From Nitrospirota bacterium (GTDB taxonomy: Bacteria; Nitrospirota; UBA9217): DNA of 64,000 nucleotides. A program made the translations under genes and the position numbers. How positions within the stretch are numbered: the first letter of the stretch is position 1; each line of letters starts with the position of its first letter. This document shows positions 1,952 through 18,953 of the stretch, piece by piece. Location of the stretch: NCBI GenBank assembly GCA_035490495.1, contig DATHDE010000201.1, positions 1,088-65,087 on the forward strand, given 5' to 3'. The notes beneath the pieces are model-generated. The model was not told the origin of the DNA. It saw only the letters and a program-made list of their open reading frames with translations, and did no database searches.

Positions 1952-2623
1952 TCATTCGGCCGTCGGGGTGTCCATTTTGACGATATTCTGTTTTATGGCA
2001 AACTTAACGATGTCGAATCGGGAGTGAAGTCCCAGTTTGGCGCAGATGTTTTCCTGGTGTGCCACCGCAGTCCTGACTGAAATCTTGAGCATCTCGGCGA
2101 TTTCCTTGTGGGTATAGCCTTCGGCAATCAGTTTCAGAACTTCTTTTTCCCGGTCAGTCAGCCTGTCATACGGATCTTCCGAAGGTTCTCCTTTATGGCC
2201 GAGATACCCTTCCACGATGCTTGACGCTACCGTATGGTGAAGATACATTTCTCCCGCAGCAATGGCGTGAATTGCGGTGATCAGATCCGTTGTCACCGCT
2301 TTTTTCAAAATGTATCCCGAGGCGCCGGCCTTGAGAAAACGCCTGACGTAGAGCTGGTCCTCATACTGTGTCAGTACGAGTATTTTGATGTTCGGGTCCG
2401 CTTTCTTAATCTTGATCGTTGCTTCCAGCCCGCCGAGTTTCGGCATGGCGATGTCCATAAGGATAACGTCCGGTTTGAGCCGCTCCGCAGCCTCAATTGC
2501 CTCTCCACCGTCGGCAGCTTCGCCGACAACTTCGAAGTCGTCGCAAATCCTTAAAAAAGCCGCAAGTCCCGCCCGCACGAGCGTATGGTCGTCGGCGATC
2601 AGTATCCTGATTTTTTTTGTCAT
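1952..2623 (-). CDS. NarL/LuxR-family response regulator (REC + LuxR HTH), paralog 1
   Basis: 223 aa. REC motifs (ILIADDH, DVILMDIAMPKLGG) and a LuxR-type HTH (LTDREKEVLKLIAEGYTHKEIAEMLKISVRTAVAH). The start abuts the kinase stop. Confidence 0.9.
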   Translation of the reverse strand: MTKKIRILIADDHTLVRAGLAAFLRICDDFEVVGEAADGGEAIEAAERLKPDVILMDIAMPKLGGLEATIKIKKADPNIKILVLTQYEDQLYVRRFLKAGASGYILKKAVTTDLITAIHAIAAGEMYLHHTVASSIVEGYLGHKGEPSEDPYDRLTDREKEVLKLIAEGYTHKEIAEMLKISVRTAVAHQENICAKLGLHSRFDIVKFAIKQNIVKMDTPTAE

Positions 2624-4429: not shown

Positions 4430-4695
4430 ACGGCATCGTGCGCTGCACACGGGAAGGGATACGACCGGATGTCCCGGATGAGACCAGGGATGCGCCGAAC
4501 ATACGTACAGGACACTCGCCCCTAGTATAGCACAATCTCGGCAGGATCCTTTTTTCGTGCCGGATGCCTTCGGCCGCTCTTCGCCCATGATGAGGAACAG
4601 GCATGAATAGACAAGGCAGGGCGTTTTCCCGCTGCTGCCGTGAGGGAAAACGCCGAACATGCGGTTAGCGAGTCGTCGAGGCCGTTCGACGAACG

Positions 4696-5457
4696 TCAGG
4701 ATCGGACGCGGCTTTCCTGCGGCCGGGGCTCGGTCGTTCGATGGCCCTGTTGGTCGTGTTTGAACAAGTCTTCCACGCTGACCCCTTCGATAGCCGCCAG
4801 TTCCACAGGATGTTCGTGCAGCATGCGCTCGCGGGAAATCTTGCCGGTAAAGATAACCGTATCCAGGGGGAACACTTCGGGACTGAATATGGCGTTATAG
4901 ATATGCCAGGTTGCAATCACCAGGAACGCAAGCAGGGCTTCATTCGAGTGCGCCGTTTTGGCTGCGGGGATCACCTCGCCCGGGAACAGCTGCGAAGAGA
5001 GCACGGGAAACCAGAGGATGAAGCCCGTAGCTACCATCAGGCATCCGCCGAGGACAACACCCCAATATTCGAATTTCTGACGATAGTCGTAGCGGTCGCA
5101 CCGTGCAGGATGATCCGCGAGACCGAAGTAAAAGAATATGTTCCTGATGGCGTCCTGATAATCCTTGATGGTCACCAGCATCGACGGCTGCCATTTTCTG
5201 AACAGGATGCCGGTAGCCGCCACCATGACATGAACCGTCAAAAAAACCGTGAAGAGAATTCCCAGGTAGCGATGGATGAGGCGTGTTGTATCCACCCCGC
5301 CGAGCGAGATGATGATCCATTGTGAAATACTGGAGTCATGGAACTTTTGTGACAGGCCGGTGATCACGAGAAGGGCGAATACGATCGCATTCAGGTGGTG
5401 TTCTGCCATGCGGTACACGCCGAATCGCTTGATATATGTCTCTTTGCCGGTGTTCAT
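4696..5457 (-). CDS. b-type cytochrome membrane subunit (FdnI/HydC, Ni/Fe-hydrogenase cytochrome b family), paralog 1
   Basis: About 253 aa from MNTGKETYIKRFGVYRMAEHHLNAIVF. Four predicted TM helices with conserved His residues. Paralogous to 15646-16377. Confidence 0.75.
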   Translation of the reverse strand: MNTGKETYIKRFGVYRMAEHHLNAIVFALLVITGLSQKFHDSSISQWIIISLGGVDTTRLIHRYLGILFTVFLTVHVMVAATGILFRKWQPSMLVTIKDYQDAIRNIFFYFGLADHPARCDRYDYRQKFEYWGVVLGGCLMVATGFILWFPVLSSQLFPGEVIPAAKTAHSNEALLAFLVIATWHIYNAIFSPEVFPLDTVIFTGKISRERMLHEHPVELAAIEGVSVEDLFKHDQQGHRTTEPRPQESRVRS

Positions 5458-5476
5458 TGCGCACCTCCTTTGTTTG

Positions 5477-6937
5477 CTAGCGCAACATCGTATAGCGCCA
5501 TACGTGCAGAAGCATCTGCAGGACAAGTCCTACGAGCATGAACGGGATGAGAATGTGGTAGATCAGTTTGATGATGAATACGAGCGGCGCGTTTTTCAGG
5601 CTCGGCTCGTAATGGGAGAGCCAGGCATCGGGGAACGACTCGGTGGCTCCCGCATGACATTGCCGGCATTGTTTCACGAGCCGCGCCTTGACCAGATTCG
5701 TGCCCGGGCCCTTTGTGCTGGTGATGTCATGCACGCCGTGACAATCGATGCACGTGGCAAGGGCTTTTCTCATTGCGACTGCTGCCGCGCCCCGTTTGTC
5801 CTTCTGCTGGCGGTAGAGCGTGATGGTAAGGCCGTGGAAGTCGTCCAGATAGGAATTGACCACGCCGGGATAGAGCCCGTATTTTTTCATGAGCGTTTTA
5901 TTGGCGTGGCACTGGCCGCAGATATCGGGGACCTTCTCGCGGTAGTCCATGGTACGGGGATCCTGGATGGCATGCGCGGAATGGCAGTCGATGCAGACAG
6001 GGACGTCCGTATTGTGTTCGTTGACCAGCGCCTTGCCGTGAATGCTTGACGCATAGGTAGCATACACCGCGCCATGGCATTTTTTGCAGGTGTGCGCCGT
6101 CTGCGTTTTATCCGTCTGGACCGGGGAGACGAGGTGACTGCCGTGGCAGTCGGTGCATACAGGCGCTTTGAGATTCCCCTGGCTCAGCATGGAATAGTGG
6201 ATGCTGTCGAGGGATTTCGAATACTTGTCGAAATGACAGCGCCTGCACGCGTCGGCATTCGCCAGGGAGAGTTCGCGTGCACTGCGGAATTCGCGCTTCG
6301 GGTGTTCTGCGGAAGAGAAGCCGAAATGGCAGTCAAAGCAACTGAGCTTTCCGTGCACCGATGCATCAAGACCGGCGCTGTCCACCCTGAGCGAAACGGG
6401 TTCGCTGTTCATCATCACAGCGGTCAGTGCATGTTCATGGCATCCGAGACAGTAGCGTCTTTCGCCTGCAACGGTTTTCCCTCCTGCGATGGGAGTAACC
6501 GAGTGGGCATTGTGGCATCTCGTACAAACGGGCGCACTGCTCTCTTTGGTAAGCACTGCGGCATGTATGGGCTTGGCCTTCAGCGAATCAGCTGAATGGC
6601 ACCGGCGGCACATCACCGCGGCCCGCAGCGCATACTGCTCCCGTGAAACAAAAACCTTTCCCTGCCCGCCCTGGTGGTTGTCCGCCGTGTAATCGGTGTG
6701 GCAGGCTGAGCAGCCAAGGGGGGCGTGCACGGACGCCTTGAATGCCGTGGCGTTGACGTATGCTTCCAGGGTCTCGTTCGTTCGCAATGATACGCTCAGC
6801 CCCTTCTGCCCGTGACACGACAGGCACGAGAGCGATTCTTCGGATAATTCCCCTGCCGGTGCGTTCGTACCTGAGCCCGGGAAAAAGCTCAAACACCAGA
6901 GCAGGGCTGCTCCCCATCGTATGATTTTTTGTATCAT
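5477..6937 (-). CDS. Multiheme c-type cytochrome (13 CXXCH), C-terminal membrane anchor, paralog 1
   Basis: Start taken at MIQKIIRWGAALLWCLSFF (signal-like). I counted 13 CXXCH motifs. C-terminal hydrophobic helix (LIYHILIPFMLVGLVLQMLL). Confidence 0.85.
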   Translation of the reverse strand: MIQKIIRWGAALLWCLSFFPGSGTNAPAGELSEESLSCLSCHGQKGLSVSLRTNETLEAYVNATAFKASVHAPLGCSACHTDYTADNHQGGQGKVFVSREQYALRAAVMCRRCHSADSLKAKPIHAAVLTKESSAPVCTRCHNAHSVTPIAGGKTVAGERRYCLGCHEHALTAVMMNSEPVSLRVDSAGLDASVHGKLSCFDCHFGFSSAEHPKREFRSARELSLANADACRRCHFDKYSKSLDSIHYSMLSQGNLKAPVCTDCHGSHLVSPVQTDKTQTAHTCKKCHGAVYATYASSIHGKALVNEHNTDVPVCIDCHSAHAIQDPRTMDYREKVPDICGQCHANKTLMKKYGLYPGVVNSYLDDFHGLTITLYRQQKDKRGAAAVAMRKALATCIDCHGVHDITSTKGPGTNLVKARLVKQCRQCHAGATESFPDAWLSHYEPSLKNAPLVFIIKLIYHILIPFMLVGLVLQMLLHVWRYTMLR

Positions 6938-7051
6938 GTTCGTTTCTCCCGCAGTACTGCACCGTGACTCTGCTGCGATGTAGGCGCAGGAAGGTGCGGT
7001 CAGAAGCACGCCTTCATACACTCCGCCATTCGAACGCAATCGCCTTCCTGC

Positions 7052-7426
7052 TCAACGAGCCTCATCCTTTTTTCTTTTTCCACCCTTCCTCTTGCTGATG
7101 AAAAATGCATGCAGCGGCCTCCAGCCGAAGAAGGCGCTCTTTCCTGCAGCGTCGGCTATCCGCTGTCCTGCACGTTTGCCGATGCCGGCGATCTTTTTCG
7201 CGAGGAAGCTTATGGTCATAATAATTCCCACGAGCGGCAGAAACATCGCATACATCACACCCAGCAGCGGCCCCGACAAAAGCATCACCGAACTCGGCGC
7301 TTTAATGAAGCCGGTCGCGCTGTCGCCAGGCAGAACATCATCCTTTTCCAGCTCAACCCGTTCACCTGTATTCATATTCCAGTAGGTGCCTGGTCCTGCT
7401 TTCTGTTCTCCTTTCCATAACAACAT
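7052..7426 (-). CDS. Small membrane protein, FGWRP-motif family (copy 1)
   Basis: 124 aa from an ATG preceded by GAGGTG. Contains GTYWNMNTGERVELEKDDVLPGD, one or two TM segments, FFGWRP and a Lys/Arg-rich tail. Paralog of 10226-10591. Confidence 0.6.
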   Translation of the reverse strand: MLLWKGEQKAGPGTYWNMNTGERVELEKDDVLPGDSATGFIKAPSSVMLLSGPLLGVMYAMFLPLVGIIMTISFLAKKIAGIGKRAGQRIADAAGKSAFFGWRPLHAFFISKRKGGKRKKDEAR

Positions 7427-8490: not shown

Positions 8491-9483
8491 ATGAGCCTTT
8501 CAAGCCTTTATAATTCCTACCCGGGCCTGTATATCGCCCAGTCCTTTCTCCACTCGTTGACGACCGCGCTGATCGTGGATGCGGCCATCCGCGTCTGGAA
8601 AATCGAGCATCCTGCGATGCGCCAGAAATTCCGCTTCTTTATCATCTTCTTCCCCGTCGTTTCCTATCCCCTCTACCAACTCGTCAATCCGGACCGCGGC
8701 TCGTTGTCATTCAGGCTGGGTGCTCTTTTCGACTCGTCCCGCTGGTTGAACCTCGAACTGCTGTCGGGAGTTTCGGCCGGCATAATTTTTATCGTTCTTC
8801 TCGCGCTGACCACACTGCTGTTTTTTTCGCAGGAGCTGGTTCCCGTAGTGCAACACGCGCTGCAGTCCAGACGCGAGGAGCTGTTAGGAGAGAAGCTCTC
8901 CGAGGATTCTCCGGTCATGCGGGCGCTGACCGCCTTCACCGATGTCAAACCTGATGTATTTATCATTCAGGATGACGATCTTGTGCTCTTTGTCACGACC
9001 GGGAAAAAACCCGCCCTCTATCTTTCGACGGGATCAATGCGGGCGCTCAGTGAGGACGAACTGCATACGGCAATCGCGCATGAGCTTGCTCATATTGAGC
9101 GCAACAAGAGACCGCTGCTGGTCATCACTTTTCTTCTCAGGGTTCTGCAGTTTTTCAATATCGTTTCCCTTATAGAATTCCGGAGAATCGTGCAGGAAGA
9201 AGAAATCATCTGCGATGACACCGCCGTTACCCAGACCGGCAAGCCGCAGGCACTGGCCGCCACGCTGCGCAAATTCCACCCGGAAAATGACGGCGAGGCG
9301 GACCCCCAGCCGAACGCAGCGATAAACACCCGTGAGCGGATGGAGCAGTACGGCCATTCTCTGTTGATCGAAAGCCGCATTACACGCCTGGAAACCTATG
9401 ACGAGCATCCCCGCACAGGGGGCGTGATCCCCCTGCTCATCACCATGGCTGCGGCTGTTGCACTTAACTACTCGATAGTCTGA
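8491..9483 (+). CDS. M56 (BlaR1-like)/M48-type membrane zinc metallopeptidase
   Basis: 330 aa with multiple TM helices and an HEXXH site (AIAHELAHIERNK). Confidence 0.7.
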   Translation: MSLSSLYNSYPGLYIAQSFLHSLTTALIVDAAIRVWKIEHPAMRQKFRFFIIFFPVVSYPLYQLVNPDRGSLSFRLGALFDSSRWLNLELLSGVSAGIIFIVLLALTTLLFFSQELVPVVQHALQSRREELLGEKLSEDSPVMRALTAFTDVKPDVFIIQDDDLVLFVTTGKKPALYLSTGSMRALSEDELHTAIAHELAHIERNKRPLLVITFLLRVLQFFNIVSLIEFRRIVQEEEIICDDTAVTQTGKPQALAATLRKFHPENDGEADPQPNAAINTRERMEQYGHSLLIESRITRLETYDEHPRTGGVIPLLITMAAAVALNYSIV

Positions 9484-9495
9484 GGGGAACCATAC

Positions 9496-10026
9496 ATGCG
9501 CGACCGTATCTATAGCGTCATACTCTTCTTCGTAGCAGTAGCGGTCCTGATAGGCATTTTGAAAGTATTAAATTGGGTTCCGGCGGCGATGCAGGAAGGC
9601 CTCCCGAGCAAATACGCATCCCTTGAAGAAGTAAAGTCGCGGCTGAACCTCCATGCCGTTTATTCTCCCTCATACTATCCCCAGGGTCTCCGCTGGCCCC
9701 CGGTCCTGATCATGGCGCAGACAAAACCGAACCTGCTGATCCTCCAGGAATATACGCAGCAGAACAGCAACTCCATTTCGCTCATCATTGCGCAAACATC
9801 GGGAAATGCAGCCCTCCCCGATCTGCCGGTCAAAATGTCCAAAAAAACCGAAGAAGTTCCCTTTGATCTTAAAGGACGCAGTGCAATGCTTGAAGTAGGG
9901 ATATGCAAGCCGTCAGGGCAATGCAGCCGCGTTACCTGGGAAGAAGGGAATTTTCGCATCATGCTGATCATGACCGCGCCCCCTTCTGAAGCAGTGAAGC
10001 TTGCAGACAGCATGATTGCAAGCTGA
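9496..10026 (+). CDS. Membrane-anchored hypothetical protein (possibly DUF4367-like)
   Basis: 176 aa with an N-terminal TM helix (IYSVILFFVAVAVLIGIL). Lies 13 nt after the peptidase gene. The domain call is from memory only. Confidence 0.45.
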   Translation: MRDRIYSVILFFVAVAVLIGILKVLNWVPAAMQEGLPSKYASLEEVKSRLNLHAVYSPSYYPQGLRWPPVLIMAQTKPNLLILQEYTQQNSNSISLIIAQTSGNAALPDLPVKMSKKTEEVPFDLKGRSAMLEVGICKPSGQCSRVTWEEGNFRIMLIMTAPPSEAVKLADSMIAS

Positions 10027-10225
10027 GGCAGAACAACAAAAGTAGTATTTTTTTTCTTCTTTTGTCCCTCCTCATCTTTTTTTCATTCAGAACATTTACC
10101 CCCGTTATCTAAGAGTTAATGCCGATGGAGTTAGGAAGTTCTGCTGATATACAAAAAAATGACTGTTTGATAAGGTTACTTAACGCAAGTAAGGAAGGCA
10201 TTTGAACGAAAGGAGGCATCACGAC

Positions 10226-10591
10226 ATGTTTACGCTATCAGGTGGACAGAAAGCTGCTGAGGGAACCTACTGGGACATCAGCTCGGGACAGCGGATCGAC
10301 ATGGATCAGGAAGGCGTCTTGCCGGGAGATCAGAACGCAAAATATATTAAAGCATCACCCGGACTGATATTGGTGACCGGCCCCTTTCTCGGCCTCATCT
10401 ACATCATTGCCCTTCCAATCATGGGTGTTGTTACAGCAATGTCACTCATCGTTCAGAAAGTATTGAGCGTCATCTCCCATCTTGTCCGGAATATGGTCTC
10501 CTTCGGATGGAGACCGTCGGAGTCGTATCTTTCGGGAAGTAATAGAAAAAAGGACGACCCGGGACGCAAAGATTCGTCCGGAAGGCATTAA
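10226..10591 (+). CDS. Small membrane protein, FGWRP-motif family (copy 2)
   Basis: ATG at 10226 lies 9 nt after AGGAGG; the ORF track starts at a TTG at 10202. Contains GTYWDISSGQRIDMDQEGVLPGD, a TM region, SFGWRP and a basic tail. Confidence 0.6.
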   Translation: MFTLSGGQKAAEGTYWDISSGQRIDMDQEGVLPGDQNAKYIKASPGLILVTGPFLGLIYIIALPIMGVVTAMSLIVQKVLSVISHLVRNMVSFGWRPSESYLSGSNRKKDDPGRKDSSGRH

Positions 10592-10644
10592 TATAAACTT
10601 TCCCTGCGGCAGACCGCGGGGTATGCAAGTGAATCCTCATCCCT

Positions 10645-10671
10645 CCCCTTCTCCCTCAAGGGGGAGAGGGG
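10645..10671 (+). other. GC-rich hairpin downstream of FGWRP copy 2 (no U-tract)
   Basis: CCCC(T)TCTCCC / GGGAGAGGGG: a 10-bp stem with one bulge and a 6-nt loop. Confidence 0.35.
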
Positions 10672-10895
10672 TAGCAGCGACTCCGCTGCACGCGACGGGA
10701 TATCTTACAATCGAATGAATACAGGAAGCCGGGTGTTCGCAAAAACTGTCTTTCGAACGGATGGCGGTCACGATTGAAATCCGCGCTGAGAAGCCTGACG
10801 TGGTCGGGGATTCCGGCATCCATCATAAGCAATCCATCTGGTAAAAACACGACGTCCCTCCGGGGGATAAATAACAGAGAAAGGAGGACCGCTGT

Positions 10896-11294
10896 ATGCA
10901 CACGATGTTTGATTTTACAACTCACGTAAAGGGAGTTGAATATCTTCTGTCTCTCGCCCTGATTGCCGGATATCTGATCGTCTGGGAGGCGCTCAAACCC
11001 AGCCCGTTCCGCGCAATCAAAGAGACGAGCAGGGATGACCTGGCGCATCTGAAGCTGGCCGGCATGCCGGGCACCATGAAACAGATCGGCCGCATTGTTT
11101 CCGCCCCATTCGTCGGCGTGTTCTATATCTTCATGCTTCCTTTCACCCTGGTCGGCGCGATCGCCTACGCCGCATACACAGCGATGGCGGGCAAAGGAGA
11201 AGCCTTCTCCTGGAGACCAGCCGAGGCATATCTTGCGGGTCGGAAGAAGACCAAGAAAAACGATGCGGCCGGAACCGCATCGGAGAAGAAATAA
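10896..11294 (+). CDS. Small membrane protein, divergent FSWRP-motif relative (copy 3)
   Basis: 132 aa. AGGAGG lies 8 nt upstream. Two TM helices and a C-terminal AFSWRPAEAYLAGRKKTKK resembling copies 1 and 2. Confidence 0.55.
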   Translation: MHTMFDFTTHVKGVEYLLSLALIAGYLIVWEALKPSPFRAIKETSRDDLAHLKLAGMPGTMKQIGRIVSAPFVGVFYIFMLPFTLVGAIAYAAYTAMAGKGEAFSWRPAEAYLAGRKKTKKNDAAGTASEKK

Positions 11295-11304
11295 CCTGCA
11301 GCCA

Positions 11305-11341
11305 GGGGAGAAGCGCGAAGGACGGGAGAGCGCTTCTCCCC
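11305..11341 (+). other. Perfect 12-bp intercistronic hairpin before the cytochrome gene
   Basis: GGGGAGAAGCGC-13 nt-GCGCTTCTCCCC, followed by TGATTGCAACC (a poor U-tract), then GAGGAGG and the ATG at 11370. Confidence 0.4.
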
Positions 11342-11369
11342 TGATTGCAACCGAGGAGGATTAAGCAGA

Positions 11370-11843
11370 ATGAAAATCTTGGCAGCCTCATTCATAGCCT
11401 GGTGCTGCATGCTGCTGTTCACGGCCGCCGGACATGCAGCCGACAATACGCCGCGGGGGATCATCAAGCTGGACAGCATTGCCAAGTTCTACCTGCCGGT
11501 TCGTTTCGACCACGCCAAGCACGCAGCCATTGCCGGCGACTGCGGCAAATGCCATCACCAGCACGGCAACAGCGCGAGCCTCCCCTGCCGCGAATGTCAT
11601 AATCTCACGGTATCGACGTTCAAGGGATCGAAAAAAGCGTCATTCATGGCGTGCAAAAACTGCCACGGCGCCTCCGATCCTGCGGCCCCGGGAATGCCCG
11701 GGCTCAAGGTTGCGTACCACCGTCAGTGTTTTCAATGCCACCGCGGCATGGGGGGAGTTGGAGAAAACCCCCAAGGCTGTACACAGATCTGCCATGGGAA
11801 GAACGATCAGCAGGCAAAGCGCGGAACGAAGTCCGCTCAATAA
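11370..11843 (+). CDS. Periplasmic c3-like multiheme cytochrome c (4 CXXCH + 1 CX3CH)
   Basis: 157 aa. Signal peptide MKILAASFIAWCCMLLFTAAGHA. Heme motifs CGKCH, CRECH, CKNCH, CFQCH and CTQICH. Confidence 0.8.
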   Translation: MKILAASFIAWCCMLLFTAAGHAADNTPRGIIKLDSIAKFYLPVRFDHAKHAAIAGDCGKCHHQHGNSASLPCRECHNLTVSTFKGSKKASFMACKNCHGASDPAAPGMPGLKVAYHRQCFQCHRGMGGVGENPQGCTQICHGKNDQQAKRGTKSAQ

Positions 11844-11888
11844 TGCATGTTGCACCGTGCTATCTGGACTGAGGAGGAATAATCCAAT

Positions 11889-12878
11889 ATGGAGAAGAAC
11901 GATAGCAAGCCCCAGGAGCCCGGACAGACGAAACCGGACTTCGACGAACCGGGCGACAGTTTAAACTTCACAAGAAGAAGGTTCATGGGGACGATGGCCG
12001 CAATCGGCGGCGCCGTCCTTGCATCGAAGTCAACAAATGCTGACGCAAAGGAGTTCGAGGGCTCGAAAGACCGGTATGGAGTATTATACGATCTGTCGAT
12101 GTGCGTCGGGTGCCGCAGCTGTGAAAAGGCCTGCAACGAGGAAAACAAGCTGGGAGCGCCGAGCAAGCCTTTTGATGATCCTTCCGTGTTCGAGGAGCAG
12201 CGCCGCCCCATGGTCAATGCCTACACCGTGGTGAACCGCTATGCGAATCCCAAGGACCCGTCGCAGCCGCTCTTCCGCAAGATTCAGTGCAATCATTGCA
12301 ACGAACCTGCCTGTGCCACGGCCTGCCCCGTCCACGCCTACACCAAGAATCCGGAAGGGCCGGTCACGTACGATGTGAGCCTCTGCTTCGGATGCAGGTA
12401 CTGCATGACCGCGTGCCCCTACTACGTTCCTGCGTACGACTACAACAGCGCCCTCGAACCGCGCATCTCGAAATGCACGATGTGCTATCATCGGGTGAAG
12501 GAAGGCAAGCCCACGGCATGCTCCGAGATCTGCCCCACAGGCGCCCTCACCTTCGGGAAACGGGAGGACTTGATTAAACTCGCACGAGAGCGTATGATGA
12601 AAAACCCCGGCAAGTACGTGGAACATATCTTCGGCGAACATGAGGCAGGGGGATCGAGCTGGCTGTACATCTCCAGCGTCCCCTTCGAGACCTACGGATT
12701 TCCGACGGACATTCAGAAAGCGCCGCTGCTCGAAAATACCAAGGGGTTCCTCGCAAGCGTTCCGCTTGTATTCACGATCTGGCCGGCGCTGTTCGGCATG
12801 CTCTATTCCGCGACCAAGCATCGTGACAGCTCCGACGAGGGGAGCGGAGATCACGGGAAACAGGAGGATAAAAAATGA
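11889..12878 (+). CDS. Tat-exported 4x[4Fe-4S] ferredoxin-like subunit (HybA/NrfC/PsrB-type)
   Basis: 329 aa. Twin-arginine signal (TRRRFMGTMAAIGGAVLA) and four Cys clusters (CVGCRSCEKAC, CNHCNEPACATACP, CFGCRYCMTACP, CTMC...CSEICP). C-terminal hydrophobic helix. Confidence 0.85.
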   Translation: MEKNDSKPQEPGQTKPDFDEPGDSLNFTRRRFMGTMAAIGGAVLASKSTNADAKEFEGSKDRYGVLYDLSMCVGCRSCEKACNEENKLGAPSKPFDDPSVFEEQRRPMVNAYTVVNRYANPKDPSQPLFRKIQCNHCNEPACATACPVHAYTKNPEGPVTYDVSLCFGCRYCMTACPYYVPAYDYNSALEPRISKCTMCYHRVKEGKPTACSEICPTGALTFGKREDLIKLARERMMKNPGKYVEHIFGEHEAGGSSWLYISSVPFETYGFPTDIQKAPLLENTKGFLASVPLVFTIWPALFGMLYSATKHRDSSDEGSGDHGKQEDKK

Positions 12879-14116
12879 GCAACGACAGCATGGCCAAATC
12901 GGATAACTTCCGGTACGGCTTTCTCGAGAAACTGCGGATGGGCATGTCCTGGGAGGAATACCGGCGGAGCCTCCTGACACCGTTCAATATCATTGCTGCC
13001 ATCATCCTGAGCATCGGCCTGCCCCTGATCGTGCTGCGCTTCGTCAAGGGTCTCGCCTATGTAACACACGCATCAAATGAATATCCCTGGGGCCTGTTCC
13101 TCGGCTGGGGGCTGTTCGGCGGTGTGCCGCTCTCGGCCACGGGCTTTGTCATGGCCACGGCATACTATATCTTCGGTTTCAAGGCATACCACCCCCTGGT
13201 GCGTCTCAGCGTGCTGACGGGCCTTTTGGGGTACTTCTTCGCCGTCATCTATCTCCTGATCGATCTGGGAAGACCCTGGCGCATCTACTTCCCGATGTTC
13301 ATCGGTTACGGCACGGCATCGGTCCTGTTCCTTGTTGCCTGGCACGTTGCGACGTACCTCACGGTCCAGATCGTCGAGTTCAGCCCGGCAATTCTTGAGT
13401 GGCTCAAATCGAGGCGCGTGCGGAGGTGGGCGCTGATGATCACGATCGGCATGACCATCTCGGGCATCATCCTGTCGACGCTTCATCAATCCGCCCTGGG
13501 CGCCATGTTCCTGCTTGCGCCCGGCAAGCTCCATCCGCTTTGGTTTTCGACGTACATCCCCGTCATGTCTCTCTGTTCGAGCGTCTATGCGGCGCTCTGC
13601 ATGATCATCGTGGTGAGCACGCTCTCAGCGCGGTATTTGCGCAACCGGGCGGACGCGACCTTCCTCGGCAACCTCGACCGGCTGACCCTGGGGCTCGGCA
13701 AGGGTGCCGTGGTCGGCATCTACGTGTACTTTGCGCTCAGGATGATCGCGATCGCGCATGACGACAACTGGGCGCTCCTTGGAACGCCGTACGGCTACTG
13801 GTACCTCGTCGAAGTGCTCGGGTTCGTGCTCCTGCCCGCGATCATCATGAGCAGCGGGGTGAAAACCGAGCGTGCAGCCTTCATCCGTTTCGGCGCTTTT
13901 CTCGGTGTCATCGGCGTCCTGTTAAACAGGATCAACGTTTCCATCGTGGCGTTCAACTGGAACCTGCCGGGGCATTTGCACCACATCATTCCGCCGTGGC
14001 GGGAAGTTGCAATCGTAGCCGCGGTCGCAACACTGCATATCCTTGTCTTCCGGTGGATCGTAAACCGCATGCCGGTCATTCGGGAGGATGAGACTTATCA
14101 CGAACTGCACTCATAA
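12875..14116 (+). CDS. NrfD/PsrC/HybB-family polytopic membrane quinone-interacting subunit
   Basis: 413 aa with about 10 TM helices. ATGA start/stop overlap with the FeS gene. Family assigned from context and topology. Confidence 0.7.
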   Translation: MSNDSMAKSDNFRYGFLEKLRMGMSWEEYRRSLLTPFNIIAAIILSIGLPLIVLRFVKGLAYVTHASNEYPWGLFLGWGLFGGVPLSATGFVMATAYYIFGFKAYHPLVRLSVLTGLLGYFFAVIYLLIDLGRPWRIYFPMFIGYGTASVLFLVAWHVATYLTVQIVEFSPAILEWLKSRRVRRWALMITIGMTISGIILSTLHQSALGAMFLLAPGKLHPLWFSTYIPVMSLCSSVYAALCMIIVVSTLSARYLRNRADATFLGNLDRLTLGLGKGAVVGIYVYFALRMIAIAHDDNWALLGTPYGYWYLVEVLGFVLLPAIIMSSGVKTERAAFIRFGAFLGVIGVLLNRINVSIVAFNWNLPGHLHHIIPPWREVAIVAAVATLHILVFRWIVNRMPVIREDETYHELHS

Positions 14117-14188: not shown

Positions 14189-15634
14189 ATGAATGTTAAG
14201 AATGTCATATTCCTGTGCGCGCTCCTGCCGCTTTTGAGCATGCTCCTGCCGCTTCCGGGCGGTGCTGCTGCCGAAACGATATCCAATCAAAACGATGCCT
14301 GCCTCGCCTGCCATGCGAAGCAGGATATCGTCATTTCGTTCCAGAACAACGAATCGCTGTCGGGTCATGTCGATGTTGAAAAGCTGAAAGCCTCGGCCCA
14401 CGGTGAGCTGGCCTGCTCTGCCTGCCACATCGAATTCGCCTCCGCTCAGCATCCGAAAAGAATTTTCAGGAGCCGCGAACAGTTCACGGTACGGGCGTCG
14501 CTCGTCTGCAGGCGCTGTCACAGCGACGAACAGCTGAAGGCACGGCCGGTCCACGTCGAACTGCTCGAACGCCAGAAAGCCGGCGCTCCCGCTGTCTGCG
14601 CTGACTGCCATGGCGCGCATTCGGTCATTCGAGTCACCCGGAGAAAGTCACTCAACGACGACGCGAAAAGCTGCCTCAGTTGCCATCGACGTCCCATCCG
14701 CATCGCCTTCCAGAAAGGCGAAGCCCAGTCGTATATCGTGGATGCGACGGTCCTGGAGGGATCGGTCCACAACAAACTTTCATGCGCAGACTGCCACTAC
14801 GGGTTTTCACGGGATGAACATCCGAAGCGCCAGTTCCGTTCTCCGCGCGACATGACCATCGCTTCGGCCGAGTCCTGCCGCAGGTGCCACTTTGACAAAT
14901 ACTCAAAGTTCCAGGACAGCATCCACTACACGAAGCTGAGCCAGGGCTTTCTCAAGGCCCCGGTTTGCACGGATTGTCACGGCCATCATTCCATCTCTTC
15001 CATTTCAAAGGAGAGGATCGTCAGCGCCAACCGCTGCCGCAAGTGCCATCCCGACATATACGACACGTATGCGAAAAGCGTTCACGGCAACGCACTGGTG
15101 AATGAATTCAACCAGGACGTTCCCGTGTGCGTTGACTGTCATACGACGCATGACATACAGAATCCCCACAGCCTGGAATTCCGGGAACGCGTACCTCAGA
15201 TGTGCAGCTCGTGCCATGCAAATAAGGGGATTATGGGGAAATACGGACTGTCCACGGATGTCATGAAGACCTATCTGTCCGATTTCCACGGTGTCACGCT
15301 CGGCTTTTACATAAAGCAGAAGAATCTGCTCCCTGCGCAGGCAAAGGGGATCGCTGTCTGCACCGACTGCCATGGAACGCACAATATCACGAGCACGGTG
15401 AGCCCGGATGCTACGACCGTCAAGGCCAATCTGGTACAACGTTGCCGGAAATGCCATGCAAATGCAACGGAAAATTTCCCCGATGCGTGGATATCGCATT
15501 ACAAACCAAGTCTTAAGCGGGCGCCCCTGTTGTTTGTCATTACGATCCTGTATAAGTTCTTGACTCCCCTCATCATCTTAGGATTGGTTTTGCAGATCTT
15601 GCTGCACATCTGGCGCTATGCAGTGAGCAGGTGA
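14189..15634 (+). CDS. Multiheme c-type cytochrome (13 CXXCH), C-terminal membrane anchor, paralog 2
   Basis: 481 aa with a signal peptide, 13 CXXCH motifs and a C-terminal helix (LIILGLVLQILLHIW). Homologous along its length to 5477-6937. Confidence 0.85.
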   Translation: MNVKNVIFLCALLPLLSMLLPLPGGAAAETISNQNDACLACHAKQDIVISFQNNESLSGHVDVEKLKASAHGELACSACHIEFASAQHPKRIFRSREQFTVRASLVCRRCHSDEQLKARPVHVELLERQKAGAPAVCADCHGAHSVIRVTRRKSLNDDAKSCLSCHRRPIRIAFQKGEAQSYIVDATVLEGSVHNKLSCADCHYGFSRDEHPKRQFRSPRDMTIASAESCRRCHFDKYSKFQDSIHYTKLSQGFLKAPVCTDCHGHHSISSISKERIVSANRCRKCHPDIYDTYAKSVHGNALVNEFNQDVPVCVDCHTTHDIQNPHSLEFRERVPQMCSSCHANKGIMGKYGLSTDVMKTYLSDFHGVTLGFYIKQKNLLPAQAKGIAVCTDCHGTHNITSTVSPDATTVKANLVQRCRKCHANATENFPDAWISHYKPSLKRAPLLFVITILYKFLTPLIILGLVLQILLHIWRYAVSR

Positions 15635-15645
15635 AGGAGATGCAC

Positions 15646-16377
15646 ATGGCAAAACCACTGGATGAACACGATAGAATCAAATTCAGGCGCTTCGGTCCGT
15701 ACCGGATCATCGAACACTGGCTCCATGCGGTTATATTCTGCCTCCTCGTTGTCACCGGGCTCGCACAGAAGTACCATGCCTATGATTTTTCCCAGTGGAT
15801 TGTCTATCGCCTGGGCGGCATCGATTCAGCGCGTCTCACCCACCGCATTGCAGGCTTCCTTCTTATCATTCTCGTTGTAGAACACATCGCTATAGCGGTG
15901 TTCGGCATCGCCAAGCGGCGCTGGCAGGCATCCATGCTGATTCAGATCAAGGACTACCGGGATGTCATCACGAACCTCAAGTATTATTTCGGCGTCAAGA
16001 ACCATCCGGCCGCATGCGACCGCTTCGACTACAAGCAGAAATTCGACTACTGGGGGGTGCTCGTCAGCAATACCGTCATGATCGTCACCGGCATTGTGCT
16101 CATGTTTCCTATTGTCACGACAAAATTCCTGTACGGCGAGATCGTGCCTGCAGCGAACGTGATCCATACGAACCAGTCCCTGCTCATCATTCTCGTTATT
16201 GCGATCTGGCACATTTACAATTCCATTTTCAGCCCTGAAATATTCCCGCTCGACACCAGCATTCTGAGCGGCTATATCTCCCGGGAACGTATGCAGCATG
16301 AACATCCGCTGGAACTGGAGCGACGCGAACGTGAGGAGCGCAAGGCACTGAGGGCAGCGCGCCAGAAACACGACTGA
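15646..16377 (+). CDS. b-type cytochrome membrane subunit (FdnI/HydC family), paralog 2
   Basis: ATG lies 6 nt after AAGGAG; the ORF track starts at a GTG at 15631, overlapping the upstream stop. Strong similarity to 4696-5457 (e.g. IWHIYNSIFSPEIFPLDT vs TWHIYNAIFSPEVFPLDT). Confidence 0.75.
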   Translation: MAKPLDEHDRIKFRRFGPYRIIEHWLHAVIFCLLVVTGLAQKYHAYDFSQWIVYRLGGIDSARLTHRIAGFLLIILVVEHIAIAVFGIAKRRWQASMLIQIKDYRDVITNLKYYFGVKNHPAACDRFDYKQKFDYWGVLVSNTVMIVTGIVLMFPIVTTKFLYGEIVPAANVIHTNQSLLIILVIAIWHIYNSIFSPEIFPLDTSILSGYISRERMQHEHPLELERREREERKALRAARQKHD

Positions 16378-16480: not shown

Positions 16481-18322
16481 ATGCAAAAAAAGCTCATCAT
16501 CGCCCTTATTCTCTATGTCGTGGTCATTTCCATCGGTCTCGGCATCGTGAGCACGATTGCGGTACAGGATGTCATCGAACGGTCCCTTCAAAAGAGCCTT
16601 ACGTCAGCGAACACGATCGCAAACCAGCTCGATTTTCTCCTGCAGACGAACATCAGCAGGCTCTACGACATATCCCTCTCCGGCAAAGTTGACTTTCGGG
16701 AACGCAACTGGGCGCCCGCGCGCCGTTTGATCGAATCCATTTACCAGTATTCAATTTTCACCGAAGGCGTCTTCCTGCTCGACAAGCACGGCAATACACT
16801 CATGTCGTACCCCGCGCGCGATTACAACCGTGAGAACCTGCTGTTTATCCCCTGGGTGAGCCGGGTCCTTTCCGAAGGAAGGCCGATCATTTCGAATGTC
16901 TACACGATCGAACCTATCAAAAAGCCCCTCATCTTCGTGCTTGTCCCTCTTCGCAATACGTCAGGCGATATCGTCGGCGCAGCCGGCGGCGCCATCAACC
17001 CCACGAACTCTGTCATGAGTCGCATTCTCCGCGGGGTGAAGGCGGACACAGGCAACTATTATCTCGAGATCATCGACTCCAACGAAGTAGTGGTCGCCTC
17101 GGACAAGAACAGCCGCATCCTGACGCACCATGACCACGACGGCTCTCTGGGTAAAATGATCAAGGACGGTGCGTCGGGCATCAGGAACTGCGGCCACGGA
17201 TTTTCCCACGATACGCCCGACAACAAAACGCAGGACATGCTGGCCATCGTGCCTCTCCAATCGGTGTCCTGGGCCGTGGTGTTCGGCCAGGCAAAGGATG
17301 AAATCTATCTTCCCGCCCAGCACTTGAAGTATCACTTTTTGCTCATTGCCCTTATATTCATCGGAACAGCGCTCATCTTCTCACTCGGCATCAGCCGCAA
17401 CATCGTAAGCCCCATCCGGTCTCTCATCTCCGCCGCGTACCGCATCGGCCAGGGCAATCTCAACGAACCTGTGGGGAATGTGGGCAGCGATGAAATAGCG
17501 GCTCTGGGCCGCAGTGTCGATGCCATGCGCGAACGGCTCGCCAAATCCCTCGAAAGCATCCAGCGTTACAATGCCGAACTTGAGGAGCGCGTGCTGCATC
17601 GGACCCGTGAACTCGAGGAGAAACAGCAGGCGAACGCATCGCTGCTGAAAAAACTGATCACCTCGCAGGAAGACGAGCGCAAAAGAATCGCCCGGGAGCT
17701 CCATGATGAGTCCCTCCAGACGCTTTCCGCAATCCTGATGAATATCGAGATGTGCAGGCTGCATCCTGATCTGATCAATGTCGATCGGGTTACGATCATC
17801 CGGGACACGGTCAGCCGGGTCATCAACGAGATGCAGAAAGTCGTGCAGAATCTGCGGCCGACGGTCCTCGACGACCTCGGATTCGAAGCTGCGGTTGTCT
17901 GGCTTGTGGACAATAACCTCCGCAACAAGGGCATTCACTGCCATTTGAACATCTTCGAACTGGCGGAGGAGCAGCTCGGCCCGGAGTTGCAGATTACGCT
18001 GTTTCGAGTGATCCAGGAAATGACGACGAATATCGCGCGCCATGCTGGCGCCAGGAATGCTTCCCTCTACATGAAAACCGATAACCAGACGTTCACACTT
18101 CTTATCGAGGATGACGGGTCGGGTTTCGATACCAAGACGGTGTTCGGCAGCCTGCAAAGCGGGCGAGGTCTGGGTCTCCTCGGCATGAGGGAGCGCGTGG
18201 CTCAGGTAAACGGAAGCCTGGATATCTGCTCCGCACCGGGTGAAGGTACCATTGTGCGCTGCACTGTCCCGATTTCACAGGAGAATGCATATGGGGATAA
18301 AAACACGGATCGTAATAGCTGA
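16481..18322 (+). CDS. Sensor histidine kinase (Cache-like, HAMP, HisKA_3, HATPase_c), paralog 2
   Basis: 613 aa. H-box RIARELHDESLQ, G-box GRGLGLLGMRERV. The position equivalent to CHRCH in paralog 1 reads CGHGFSH. Confidence 0.85.
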   Translation: MQKKLIIALILYVVVISIGLGIVSTIAVQDVIERSLQKSLTSANTIANQLDFLLQTNISRLYDISLSGKVDFRERNWAPARRLIESIYQYSIFTEGVFLLDKHGNTLMSYPARDYNRENLLFIPWVSRVLSEGRPIISNVYTIEPIKKPLIFVLVPLRNTSGDIVGAAGGAINPTNSVMSRILRGVKADTGNYYLEIIDSNEVVVASDKNSRILTHHDHDGSLGKMIKDGASGIRNCGHGFSHDTPDNKTQDMLAIVPLQSVSWAVVFGQAKDEIYLPAQHLKYHFLLIALIFIGTALIFSLGISRNIVSPIRSLISAAYRIGQGNLNEPVGNVGSDEIAALGRSVDAMRERLAKSLESIQRYNAELEERVLHRTRELEEKQQANASLLKKLITSQEDERKRIARELHDESLQTLSAILMNIEMCRLHPDLINVDRVTIIRDTVSRVINEMQKVVQNLRPTVLDDLGFEAAVVWLVDNNLRNKGIHCHLNIFELAEEQLGPELQITLFRVIQEMTTNIARHAGARNASLYMKTDNQTFTLLIEDDGSGFDTKTVFGSLQSGRGLGLLGMRERVAQVNGSLDICSAPGEGTIVRCTVPISQENAYGDKNTDRNS

Positions 18323-18953
18323 CGACCATGCGCTTGTACGCCAGGGCATTGTTGCTTTTCTGAAGATGACCGATACGTATGAAGTCGTTGCCGAGGCTTC
18401 GGACGGGGTGGAAGCCATCGAAGCGGTCAATAAATGGAAGCCCGACATCGTCATCATGGACATTTCCATGCCGAAGCTGGGGGGTCTGGAAGCGACCGTG
18501 GAAATTAAGAAAAACTTTCCGTCGGTGAAGATCCTCGTACTGACGCAGTACGAGGATATGATGTACATCCGCCGTTTTTTCAAGGCGGGAGCCTCGGGGT
18601 ATCTCGTCAAGAAGGCGGTTGGCGTGGATTTGCTCACGGCCCTGGAGGCCATCATGTCAGGTAAAATGTATGTCCACCCATCCATTGCAACATGCGTCGT
18701 CGACGGATATCTCGGTATCAACAAGGGCGAACCCGCCGAGGATCCCTATGACACGCTGACGGATCGTGAAAAGCAGGTGTTGAAACTCATCGCGGAGGGA
18801 TATACACAGAAGGAAACTGCAGACATCCTGGCAATCAGCACAAAAACAGTCATCACTCATCAGACGAATCTGAGCGAAAAGCTGAACATCCGCACACGCG
18901 CAGGCCTGATCAAGTTCGCGATACAGAAAGGAATCATCAAGATCGATTCGTAA
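18291..18953 (+). CDS. NarL/LuxR-family response regulator, paralog 2
   Basis: Start taken at MGIKTRIVIADDH, 7 nt after AGGAG, giving a 32-nt overlap with the kinase. REC plus LuxR HTH (LTDREKQVLKLIAEGYTQKETADILAISTKTVITH). Confidence 0.9.
   Translation: MGIKTRIVIADDHALVRQGIVAFLKMTDTYEVVAEASDGVEAIEAVNKWKPDIVIMDISMPKLGGLEATVEIKKNFPSVKILVLTQYEDMMYIRRFFKAGASGYLVKKAVGVDLLTALEAIMSGKMYVHPSIATCVVDGYLGINKGEPAEDPYDTLTDREKQVLKLIAEGYTQKETADILAISTKTVITHQTNLSEKLNIRTRAGLIKFAIQKGIIKIDS

What the first reader, a model, noticed from the sequence alone, without database searches (positions are those of the whole stretch)
10226..11294. Uncharacterised family of small membrane proteins (G-x-YW ... VLPGD ... F(G/S)WRP) leading both cytochrome operons
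There are three copies: 7052-7426 (minus strand), 10226-10591 and 10896-11294. Copies 1 and 2 share GTYW(N/D)xxxGxR(V/I)...VLPGD...(F/Y)IKA, a GP(L/F)LG TM segment, FGWRP and a basic tail. Copy 3 keeps only the TM segment, FSWRPAEAYL and the basic tail. Each copy is the first gene of a multiheme cytochrome operon. I do not recognise the family. The position and conservation suggest an assembly factor, membrane tether or regulatory partner for the cytochrome/kinase module.
Basis: seen in the sequence. Interest (0 to 1): 0.65.

Follow-up and report, generated by a model that had tools for sequence, protein, structure and literature searches.

The report
Unnamed small membrane proteins beside cytochromes
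Three small genes at the head of two respiratory cytochrome operons belong to a real, widespread but unnamed family of membrane proteins that stays next to multihaem-cytochrome/cytochrome-b genes across several bacterial phyla, so they are most likely unrecognised accessory parts of these electron-transfer complexes.

Summary
Three ORFs (7052-7426 minus, 10226-10591 plus, 10896-11294 plus) are homologous. They have good ribosome-binding sites, and no fourth copy lies in the window.

Copies 1 and 2 share a roughly 43-residue beta-strand N-domain, a 34-residue uncharged segment with an invariant central proline, an amphipathic helix, the FGWRP motif and a lysine-rich tail. Copy 3 keeps only the C-terminal module.

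No Pfam, NCBIfam, PDB or fold match exists for the copy 1/2 type. An exhaustive profile search still finds 838 protein clusters.

Gene neighbourhood is conserved in MAGs of Nitrospirota, Deferrimicrobia, Gemmatimonadota and Vicinamibacteria. The family gene sits before, after or convergent to a 13-haem cytochrome and cytochrome b pair. One lineage fuses the N-domain and hydrophobic segment onto that cytochrome in place of its signal peptide. Another fuses a family member to a receiver domain.

Best reading: small accessory subunits or assembly partners of the CbcAB-like and Hmc-like modules, with both soluble ends in the cytoplasm. A signalling role is a serious rival. Orphan copies and unrelated contexts remain unexplained, and AlphaFold does not support the proposed hairpin topology.

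The parts
7052..7426 (-). Copy 1 (124 aa): beta N-domain, 34-aa uncharged segment, amphipathic helix, FGWRP, K/R-rich tail. First gene of the minus-strand operon.
   Evidence: profile E=1.6e-39
10226..10591 (+). Copy 2 (121 aa): same architecture as copy 1. First gene of the plus-strand gene string.
   Evidence: profile E=6.4e-41
10896..11294 (+). Copy 3 (132 aa): HmcD-like N-terminal transmembrane helix (residues 2-31), basic loop, then the shared hydrophobic segment, FSWRPAEAYL and basic tail.
10602..10689 (+). Three stem-loops in the 304-nt spacer after copy 2 (10602-10621, 10646-10671, 10674-10689).
   Evidence: The spacer is only about 20-70 nt in most relatives.
11297..11349 (+). Strong hairpin between the copy 3 stop codon and the ribosome-binding site of the 4-haem cytochrome gene.
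   Evidence: I4; -37.2 kcal/mol, z=-5.4. A comparable hairpin occurs in most related loci, with different sequence.
5477..6937 (-). 13-haem c-type cytochrome with a C-terminal membrane anchor (CbcA-like). The likely true start is ATG 6937.
   Evidence: Homologous to the cytochrome part of fusion P0174.
4696..5526 (-). Cytochrome b of the FdnI/HydC type (CbcB-like).
1952..4660 (-). HAMP/HisKA_3 sensor kinase (2624-4660, one CxxCH in its periplasmic domain) and a LuxR-type response regulator (1952-2623).
8491..10026 (+). M56/M48-like membrane metallopeptidase (8491-9483) and a 176-aa single-TM protein (9496-10026). Both are conserved neighbours of the family.
11370..14116 (+). Hmc-like module: 4-haem cytochrome (11370-11843), HmcB-like FeS protein (11889-12878) and HmcC/NrfD-like membrane protein (12875-14116).
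14189..16377 (+). Second 13-haem cytochrome (14189-15634) and cytochrome b (15631-16377).
16481..18953 (+). dCache/HAMP/HisKA_3 kinase (16481-18322) and LuxR-type response regulator (18240-18953).

Best explanation
Copies 1-3 are genuine small inner-membrane proteins of an unnamed family. They act as accessory subunits or assembly partners of the quinol-linked cytochrome modules encoded beside them.

Proposed pairing (inferred):
- Copy 1 goes with the 13-haem cytochrome and cytochrome b pair of the minus-strand operon.
- Copies 2 and 3 form a cognate pair, probably a heterodimer through their homologous C-terminal modules. They serve the plus-strand Hmc-like (4-haem/FeS/NrfD) and 13-haem/cytochrome b modules.
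- Copy 3 supplies an HmcD-like helix.

Proposed mechanism (inferred):
- The 34-residue proline-kinked hydrophobic segment enters and leaves the membrane on the cytoplasmic side. There it packs against the membrane helices of cytochrome b, NrfD or the cytochrome's C-terminal anchor.
- The amphipathic helix, the W-R-P..AY motif and the lysine-rich tail lie on the cytoplasmic membrane surface.
- The small beta domain is a cytoplasmic docking knob.

Shown: homology, family size, conserved neighbourhood and the fusions. Inferred: physical association, the pairing scheme and the topology.
For: The family is real and under selection. There are 838 clusters at E<=1e-3 and 348 at E<=1e-10. G13, Y15, G56 and P64 are invariant across 78 sequences that are 20-53% identical to copy 2.

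Synteny. The order M56 peptidase, 176-aa protein, copy 2, copy 3, 4-haem cytochrome, FeS, NrfD, 13-haem cytochrome, cytochrome b, kinase, regulator recurs in about 40 of 69 genome loci from Nitrospirota, Deferrimicrobia and Gemmatimonadota MAGs. The order copy-1 type, 13-haem cytochrome, cytochrome b occurs in L012, L014 and L031.

Distant members (23-33% identity) still sit next to a multihaem cytochrome and cytochrome b pair, but in other arrangements:
- after cytochrome b in a Vicinamibacteria MAG (L084);
- convergent to the operon in L075, L077, L081 and L086.

Fusion. P0174 and P0157 carry the N-domain and hydrophobic segment exactly where the cytochrome's signal peptide should be. The cytochrome part is 32% identical to the window's 13-haem cytochrome, E=1e-72.

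Copy 3. Its N-terminus matches NCBIfam HmcD in 35 of 42 homologues, best E=1.4e-6. The next three genes are HmcA-, HmcB- and HmcC-like (HmcB-like 401.8 bits, HmcC-like 411.4 bits).

Pairing. A copy-2-type gene is followed by a copy-3-type gene in 52 of 86 cases.

Topology. The cytochrome fusion puts the N-domain in the cytoplasm. The positive C-flank (2.8 K/R against 0.5 D/E in 15 residues) and the receiver-domain fusion put the C-terminus in the cytoplasm.
Against: - There is no direct evidence of physical association or of expression.
- Of 86 copy-1/2-type genes in the fetched loci, 38 have no cytochrome homologue within 10 kb. Some of these are on short contigs.
- Orphan copy 2-copy 3 pairs exist (L005, L006, L055, L056, L060, L065, L066, L068).
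- Distant members lie beside patatin genes (L072/L074) or a 929-aa unknown protein (L078).
- The sample of genome loci was drawn with one peptide pattern, V[ST]FGWRPxE[SA], so it is biased towards close relatives.
- AlphaFold2 draws one straight helix through the conserved proline in copy 2 and in a tandem family member, which does not support the hairpin. pTM is low (0.39 and 0.31).
- The strong hairpin after copy 3 could mean the small genes are expressed separately from the cytochromes.
Confidence: 0.45

Rival explanations
1. The small proteins are signalling adaptors or feedback regulators of the co-encoded HisKA_3 kinase and LuxR regulator, possibly together with the M56/M48 peptidase and its 176-aa partner. 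They would report or modulate kinase activity from the cytoplasmic membrane face, as small membrane proteins such as MgrB or LiaF do for other kinases. They would not be structural parts of the cytochrome complex.
For: - A HisKA_3 kinase and a LuxR regulator end both window operons, as they do in most related loci.
- 43 of 86 family genes have a homologue of them within 10 kb.
- In L075, L077, L081 and L086 the family gene is the immediate convergent neighbour of the regulator gene, not of the cytochrome genes.
- In L087 one paralogue is fused to a receiver domain. The fusion is seen on two independent contigs.
- The M56 peptidase and 176-aa protein are conserved next to the family (39 of 86). 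They lie inside the operon in L075, L081 and L086.
- The hairpin after copy 3 would allow expression separate from the cytochromes.
Against: - In the Vicinamibacteria locus L084 the family gene follows the multihaem cytochrome and cytochrome b, with a MerR-type gene and no kinase in view.
- The cytochrome fusion and the HmcD-like head of copy 3 point to the redox complex itself.
- There is no sequence similarity to any known kinase modulator.
Confidence: 0.27
2. The family is a general membrane-organising or membrane-stress protein, a monotopic hairpin protein in the manner of stomatin or caveolin. It is merely co-regulated with membrane-heavy respiratory operons and has no specific cytochrome or kinase partner.
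For: - The family occurs in varied contexts: patatin phospholipases (L072/L074), dynamin/CHAT proteins (L075, L081, L086), orphan pairs, and near glnA/PII genes (L026/L027).
- Many paralogues occur per genome: three copy 2-copy 3 pairs plus a copy-1 type in L014, and four to six in L087.
- The 34-residue uncharged segment with an invariant central proline, and the interfacial W..P..AY motif, suit a monotopic membrane-surface protein.
Against: - Adjacency to a multihaem cytochrome and cytochrome b pair persists across four phyla and three gene arrangements.
- The fusion joins the family precisely to that cytochrome.
- AlphaFold2 does not predict a hairpin.
Confidence: 0.2
3. The ORFs are spurious or chance similarities in leader regions.
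For: None beyond their small size and the absence of annotation.
Against: - Pairwise E=7e-30.
- 838 homologous clusters with conserved motifs down to about 20% identity to copy 2.
- Good ribosome-binding sites.
- A confident beta-domain and helix model, with pLDDT 84-92 over residues 1-80 apart from one block at 78.
Confidence: 0.01

Closest known systems
HmcD (NCBIfam NF045712), the small hydrophobic protein encoded in the Desulfovibrio hmc operon. Its role there as a small membrane subunit is from my own knowledge.
   Same: Residues 2-31 of copy 3 match the HmcD model, and 35 of 42 homologues match it at E<=0.01. Copy 3 is encoded next to HmcA-, HmcB- and HmcC-like genes.
   Different: - All scores are below the curated cut-off (17.7 bits for copy 3, against 34).
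- Copy 3 is 132 aa, while the model covers 38 positions.
- Copy 3 carries an extra 90-residue loop, hydrophobic segment, FSWRP motif and basic tail.
- The gene comes before the HmcA-like gene, not after hmcC.
- The HmcA-like protein has 4 haems. HmcA is named a hexadecahaem (16-haem) cytochrome in NCBIfam.
- HmcE and HmcF are replaced by a 13-haem cytochrome and an FdnI-type cytochrome b.
- Copies 1 and 2 have no HmcD-like part.
The Geobacter sulfurreducens cbcBA operon (CbcA multihaem cytochrome with a C-terminal anchor, plus CbcB dihaem cytochrome b). [quoted passage not shown]
   Same: - A membrane-anchored multihaem cytochrome c sits next to an FdnI/HydC-type cytochrome b.
- The pair lies in a regulated operon headed by small hypothetical genes.
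- A sigma-54 activator gene lies nearby in the window (396-1748).
   Different: - The window cytochromes have 13 haems, not 7.
- Regulation here is by a HisKA_3 kinase and a LuxR regulator.
- No -24/-12 promoter was found upstream of the small genes.
Small membrane modulators of sensor kinases (MgrB, SafA, LiaF). Comparison from my own knowledge.
   Same: Small membrane proteins encoded with, and probably controlled by, a two-component system. LiaS-type kinases are also HisKA_3.
   Different: No sequence or fold similarity. The family is tied more constantly to the cytochrome pair than to the kinase.
Monotopic hairpin proteins with a central proline (stomatin, caveolin). Comparison from my own knowledge.
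   Same: An uncharged stretch with a median of 34 residues and an invariant proline at about position 21. Soluble parts on both sides are inferred to be cytoplasmic.
   Different: No homology. AlphaFold2 predicts a straight helix. In the fusion to the cytochrome the same segment must span the membrane.

Membership tests
HmcD (NCBIfam NF045712, equivalog) | Score at or above the curated cut-off of 34 bits. | tested here: not met
   Copy 3 scores 17.7 bits, E=0.0026. 35 of 42 homologues match at E<=0.01, best 1.4e-6, which still looks sub-threshold for a 38-position model; the bit scores of the homologues were not printed.
HmcD (NCBIfam NF045712, equivalog) | A very small protein consisting of one hydrophobic helix (the model has 38 positions). 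| tested here: not met
   Copy 3 is 132 aa with a second hydrophobic segment and a conserved tail.
HmcD (NCBIfam NF045712, equivalog) | Encoded in an hmcABCDEF operon. | tested here: inconclusive
   - HmcB-like 401.8 bits (cut-off 420).
- HmcC-like 411.4 bits (cut-off 550).
- HmcA-like only over a 4-haem C-terminal part (49 bits, cut-off 400).
- HmcE and HmcF were not searched for by name; none of the scanned proteins of the cluster matched an HmcE or HmcF model.
Pfam PF28260 (attached in the precomputed table to copy-3-type homologues) | Match to the Pfam model above its gathering score. | not testable with these tools
   24 of 73 copy-3 homologues carry PF28260.1 in the precomputed table. 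The local Pfam copy returns no PF28260 match for three proteins that carry it in that table, so it appears not to hold the model. No paper mentions it. None of the 168 copy-1/2-type hits carries it.
Any curated family (Pfam-A, NCBIfam, PADLOC) for the copy 1/2 type | A significant profile match. | tested here: not met
   - No match for copies 1 and 2.
- No consistent match among 78 diverse members.
- PDB sequence search: best E=8.8.
- Foldseek against PDB: best E=0.17.
Small hypothetical proteins of the Geobacter cbcBA operon (GSU0597, GSU3489) | Sequence homology to GSU0597 or GSU3489. | not testable with these tools
Only the operon description was read.
Monotopic or re-entrant hairpin membrane proteins | A hydrophobic stretch of about 30 or more residues with a central helix breaker, and both ends on the same side. 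| tested here: inconclusive
   - For: median 34 uncharged residues with an invariant proline at position 21.
- For: the N-terminus is cytoplasmic from the cytochrome fusion, and the C-terminus is cytoplasmic from charge bias and the receiver fusion.
- Against: AlphaFold2 gives straight helices.

The most novel reading that the evidence does not exclude
The family is a new class of cytoplasm-facing hairpin subunits embedded in quinol:multihaem-cytochrome modules. These subunits relay the state of the respiratory complex to the co-encoded two-component system, and perhaps to the M56 peptidase. In effect this would be a respiratory complex with a built-in signalling subunit. The receiver-domain fusion would be the fused form of that relay, and the cytochrome fusion the fused form of the anchoring.
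Probability: 0.15. Interest if true: 0.75.

Novelty: new variant of a known kind. Interest (0 to 1): 0.5.

Why it matters
Inner-membrane quinol oxidoreductases of the Cbc and Hmc type control how anaerobes pass electrons to metals, electrodes and sulfur compounds. Their subunit composition is largely inferred from operons.

This family is consistently encoded with such modules in uncultured Nitrospirota, Deferrimicrobia, Gemmatimonadota and Acidobacteriota, yet no annotation database searched here names the copy-1/2 type. Recognising it would add a missing component to models of these complexes. It would give a sharper genomic marker for this type of cytochrome cluster. If the signalling reading is right, it would also show how cells sense the state of an electron-transfer module.

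The practical gain is modest until a cultivable host or a heterologous system is available.

Tried and rejected
- **Sigma-54 control.** A search for a -24/-12 promoter, prompted by the nearby sigma-54 activator and the Geobacter BccR analogy, found nothing upstream of copies 1-3. Window-wide there were 26 matches against 33 expected by chance.
- **RNA families.** No Rfam family lies in the region or the window, and there are no tRNAs.
- **Ribosome-arrest peptide.** I considered that W-R-P might be an arrest motif controlling the downstream gene. I rejected this because the motif lies 78 nt upstream of the hairpin, too far for a stalled ribosome to open it. The motif is also conserved as a protein feature in members that are not followed by other genes.
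- **Structural neighbours.** Foldseek against PDB gave only weak matches to beta-sandwich fragments of GH31 enzymes, best E=0.17.
- **Defence systems.** PADLOC gave no hit for window or distant members, despite the patatin/CHAT neighbours.
- **Plasmids.** tblastn found no homologue.
- **Metagenome locus scans.** Scans with the diverse alignments A2 and A4 failed because no stretch was conserved enough.
- **Cluster look-up.** It gave no organism names.
- **Literature.** Searches for HmcD and PF28260 gave nothing useful.
- **Hairpin topology.** AlphaFold2 on a tandem family member did not show a hairpin.
- **The 94-aa gene** heading the distant operons (L075, L086) is not a family member at the thresholds used (E<=1e-3 for L075; E<=1e-2 for L086).
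Full report
**1. What is in the sequence**

Copy 1 is 7052-7426 on the minus strand (124 aa). Copy 2 is 10226-10591 on the plus strand (121 aa). Copy 3 is 10896-11294 on the plus strand (132 aa). Each ATG follows a good ribosome-binding site. Alignment with homologues confirms these starts rather than the upstream TTG or GTG codons.

The similarity is not chance.
- Copy 1 vs copy 2: 34% identity over the full length, E=7e-30.
- Copy 3 vs copies 2 and 1: the alignment covers only the C-terminal ~65-75 residues, E=2e-10 and 3e-7.
- Profile against profile for the two subfamilies: 99.3% probability, E=1.5e-20, over 78 columns.
- A six-frame profile scan finds no fourth member in the window.

**2. 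Gene context in the window**

The minus strand reads:
- copy 1;
- a 13-haem cytochrome c with a C-terminal membrane anchor (its true start is probably ATG 6937);
- an FdnI/HydC-type cytochrome b;
- a HAMP/HisKA_3 kinase;
- a LuxR-type regulator.

The plus strand reads:
- an M56/M48-like peptidase and a 176-aa single-TM protein;
- copy 2, then copy 3;
- a 4-haem cytochrome, a FeS protein and an NrfD protein;
- a second 13-haem cytochrome and a second cytochrome b;
- a dCache/HAMP/HisKA_3 kinase and a LuxR regulator.

The FeS and NrfD proteins score 401.8 and 411.4 bits against NCBIfam HmcB and HmcC, just under the curated cut-offs. The 4-haem cytochrome matches the C-terminal end of HmcA. The plus strand therefore encodes an Hmc-like module followed by a CbcAB-like module. 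The statement that each copy is the first gene of an operon needs correcting, because copies 2 and 3 are the first and second genes of one string.

**3. Anatomy of the proteins**

Copies 1 and 2 consist of five parts.
- A beta domain of about 43 residues. AlphaFold2 gives four strands with pLDDT 84-89.
- An uncharged stretch with a median of 34 residues, carrying invariant G-P, G and a central L-P.
- An amphipathic basic helix.
- The motif (F)GWRPxEAYL.
- A lysine-rich tail that is predicted to be disordered.

More distant clades replace the tail by a helix of the form L..LE.EI..RR..GE.

Copy 3 lacks the beta domain. It starts instead with a very conserved helix, M.T(L/M)FDF.THVKGVEY...WEALKP.PF. 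This helix matches NCBIfam HmcD in 35 of 42 homologues, best E=1.4e-6; copy 3 itself scores 17.7 bits against a cut-off of 34.

Short forms of 80-100 aa consist of the C-terminal module alone. They take the place of copy 2 in some lineages. The conserved core of the family is therefore the hydrophobic segment, the W-R-P motif and the basic tail.

**4. Is the family known?**

No.
- Pfam-A, NCBIfam and PADLOC give nothing for copies 1 and 2.
- None of 78 diverse members has a consistent Pfam match.
- The PDB sequence search and Foldseek give nothing significant.
- Every source name is 'hypothetical protein', apart from one evidently wrong 'urea transporter'.
- Some copy-3-type homologues carry a precomputed Pfam accession, PF28260.1. 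The local library appears not to hold it and I could not identify it.

**5. How widespread is it?**

An exhaustive profile search of 1.84 billion representative proteins finds 838 clusters at E<=1e-3 and 348 at E<=1e-10. Named sources are all metagenome-assembled genomes. They come from Nitrospirota (Thermodesulfovibrionales, Dissulfurispiraceae), Deferrimicrobia and other 'Deltaproteobacteria', one Gemmatimonadota and one Vicinamibacteria. The window's closest relatives are Nitrospirota MAGs at 63-73% identity, so the window is probably from that phylum.

**6. Conserved neighbourhood**

In about 40 of 69 genome loci the whole string recurs: M56 peptidase, 176-aa protein, copy 2, copy 3, 4-haem cytochrome, FeS, NrfD, 13-haem cytochrome, cytochrome b, kinase, regulator. 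The arrangement copy-1 type, 13-haem cytochrome, cytochrome b, kinase, regulator occurs in L012 and L014, and its first three genes in L031.

Counts over 86 copy-1/2-type genes:

| Feature | Count out of 86 |
|---|---|
| Next gene is a copy-3 type | 52 |
| Next gene is the 13-haem cytochrome | 4 |
| Next gene is something else | 20 |
| Cytochrome or cytochrome b homologue within 10 kb | 48 |
| Kinase or regulator within 10 kb | 43 |
| Peptidase or 176-aa protein within 10 kb | 39 |

This sample is biased, because it was drawn with a single peptide pattern.

More telling are distant members at 23-33% identity.
- In a Vicinamibacteria MAG the order is MerR, multihaem cytochrome, cytochrome b, family member (L084).
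- In L075, L081 and L086 a family member lies convergent to an operon of a 94-aa gene, multihaem cytochrome, cytochrome b, M56 peptidase, 190-aa protein, kinase and regulator.
- In L077 a tandem-duplicated member lies convergent to multihaem cytochrome, cytochrome b, kinase and regulator.

The association with a multihaem cytochrome and cytochrome b pair thus survives three different gene arrangements and four phyla.

**7. Fusions**

- **Cytochrome fusion.** P0174 (602 aa, verified on its contig) and P0157 carry the beta domain and hydrophobic segment directly in front of ...VASASDALKSEEAGMCLGCH. That is exactly where the signal peptide of the cytochrome should be. The cytochrome part is 32% identical to the window's 13-haem cytochrome, E=1e-72.
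- **Receiver fusion.** P0212 is seen on two contigs. It lies inside the same conserved cluster, among four family paralogues. It carries the beta domain, a longer hydrophobic region of about 48 residues and a response-regulator receiver domain.
- **Tandem proteins.** Several proteins repeat the beta domain and hydrophobic segment twice.

**8. Topology (inferred)**

- The cytochrome fusion places the beta domain in the cytoplasm.
- The C-flank is positively charged: 2.8 K/R against 0.5 D/E in 15 residues. The tail is lysine-rich, and the receiver fusion also points the same way. All three place the C-terminus in the cytoplasm.
- In the tandem proteins all three soluble parts are net positive (counted by eye from the alignment).
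- A clade with 45-64 uncharged residues looks like a full two-helix hairpin.

The simplest model is that the 34-residue segment, with its invariant central proline, enters and leaves the membrane on the cytoplasmic side.

Against this, AlphaFold2 draws a straight helix through the proline in copy 2 and in a tandem protein (pTM 0.39 and 0.31). In the cytochrome fusion the same segment must span the membrane. This point is unresolved (notebook, 'unexplained').

**9. Function**

I rank three readings.

*(a) Accessory subunit or assembly partner of the adjacent redox modules (0.45).* Support:
- the persistent adjacency to the cytochrome pair;
- the fusion to that cytochrome;
- the HmcD-like head of copy 3, next to HmcA/B/C-like genes.

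A tidy but unproven scheme follows from this. Copy 1 would serve the minus-strand cytochrome pair. Copy 2 would serve the plus-strand pair. Copy 3 would serve the Hmc-like module. Copies 2 and 3 would dimerise through their shared module.

*(b) Signalling adaptor for the HisKA_3 kinase and LuxR regulator and/or the M56 peptidase (0.27).* Support:
- the receiver fusion;
- the position next to the regulator gene in convergent loci;
- the conserved peptidase pair.

*(c) General membrane-surface protein that is only co-regulated (0.20).* Support:
- orphan copy 2-copy 3 pairs;
- high paralogue numbers;
- distant members beside patatin, CHAT/dynamin or unknown genes.

Spurious ORFs are excluded.

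**10. RNA features**

A 20-bp-arm hairpin at 11297-11349 (-37.2 kcal/mol, z=-5.4) lies between the copy 3 stop codon and the ribosome-binding site of the 4-haem cytochrome gene. Most related loci have a comparably long hairpin at the same place, with unrelated sequence. That points to a function at the RNA level, either attenuation or stabilisation of the upstream small-gene segment. The 304-nt spacer between copies 2 and 3 holds three further stem-loops. It is peculiar to the window, since most relatives have about 20-70 nt there. No equivalent structure follows copy 1.

**11. Comparison with known systems**

The nearest known protein is HmcD, and only for the first 30 residues of copy 3. Membership fails on score, size and operon composition.

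The nearest known system is the Geobacter cbcBA operon. [quoted passage not shown] I could not test whether those two are homologous to this family.

Small kinase modulators and proline-kinked monotopic proteins are functional or architectural analogies only.

**12. Verdict**

The family is real, sizeable and unnamed, and it is tied to CbcAB-like and Hmc-like respiratory modules in uncultured anaerobes. It is best filed as a new variant of a known kind, namely small accessory membrane proteins of respiratory complexes. Interest is moderate at 0.5. The most novel reading still open is a respiratory complex with a built-in signalling subunit.

Noticed in passing
window 2624-4660 (-): The periplasmic Cache-like domain of this HisKA_3 kinase contains one c-type haem-binding motif (CHRCH). 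Its paralogue at 16481-18322 has none. The ORF as listed also starts too early; the first membrane helix begins near M78.
   Followed up: partly
window 11297-11349 (+); L001, L002, L007, L014, L017, L019, L023, L029, L050, L054, L059, L064, L070, L071: A long hairpin lies between the stop codon of the copy-3-type gene and the ribosome-binding site of the 4-haem cytochrome gene. Its position and strength are conserved but its sequence is not. It may be an attenuator or an mRNA stabiliser.
   Followed up: partly
window 10592-10895 (+): The spacer between copies 2 and 3 is 304 nt and holds three stem-loops. Most relatives have only about 20-70 nt here. It may be an inserted element or an extra regulatory region.
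   Followed up: no
window 7605-7625 and 7679-7703 (upstream of copy 1); 10073-10101 (upstream of copy 2): The two promoter regions share a 25-nt similarity and the motif WWTTTACCCCC, 100-195 nt upstream of the start codons. Similar motifs occur upstream of copy-2-type genes in L011, L019, L028, L042 and L053. This is a possible regulator-binding or promoter element.
   Followed up: partly
window 8491-10026 (+); L075, L081, L086, L087: An M56/M48-like membrane metallopeptidase (HELAH motif) and a 176-190-aa single-TM protein with no family assignment are conserved neighbours of the cytochrome/kinase cluster across phyla. In some loci they lie inside the operon, between cytochrome b and the kinase.
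   Followed up: partly
window 5477-7039 (-): The mechanical ORF starts 34 codons too early. The signal peptide begins at the ATG at 6937. This leaves about 115 nt between copy 1 and the cytochrome gene, with no notable structure.
   Followed up: yes
L087 6421-9641: This locus holds an array of four copy-1/2-type paralogues, one of them fused to a receiver domain. A copy-3-type gene and a further related 142-aa gene follow, all ahead of the same Hmc-like and cytochrome b cluster.
   Followed up: partly
L072/L074 and L075/L081/L086: Distant family members sit beside patatin-like phospholipase genes, or directly after CHAT and dynamin-like genes. PADLOC gave no hit for the two L072/L074 proteins and the L075 protein that were scanned.
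   Followed up: partly
window 396-1748 (-): A PAS/sigma-54 activator gene lies just downstream of the minus-strand operon. No -24/-12 promoter was found upstream of the small genes.
   Followed up: partly
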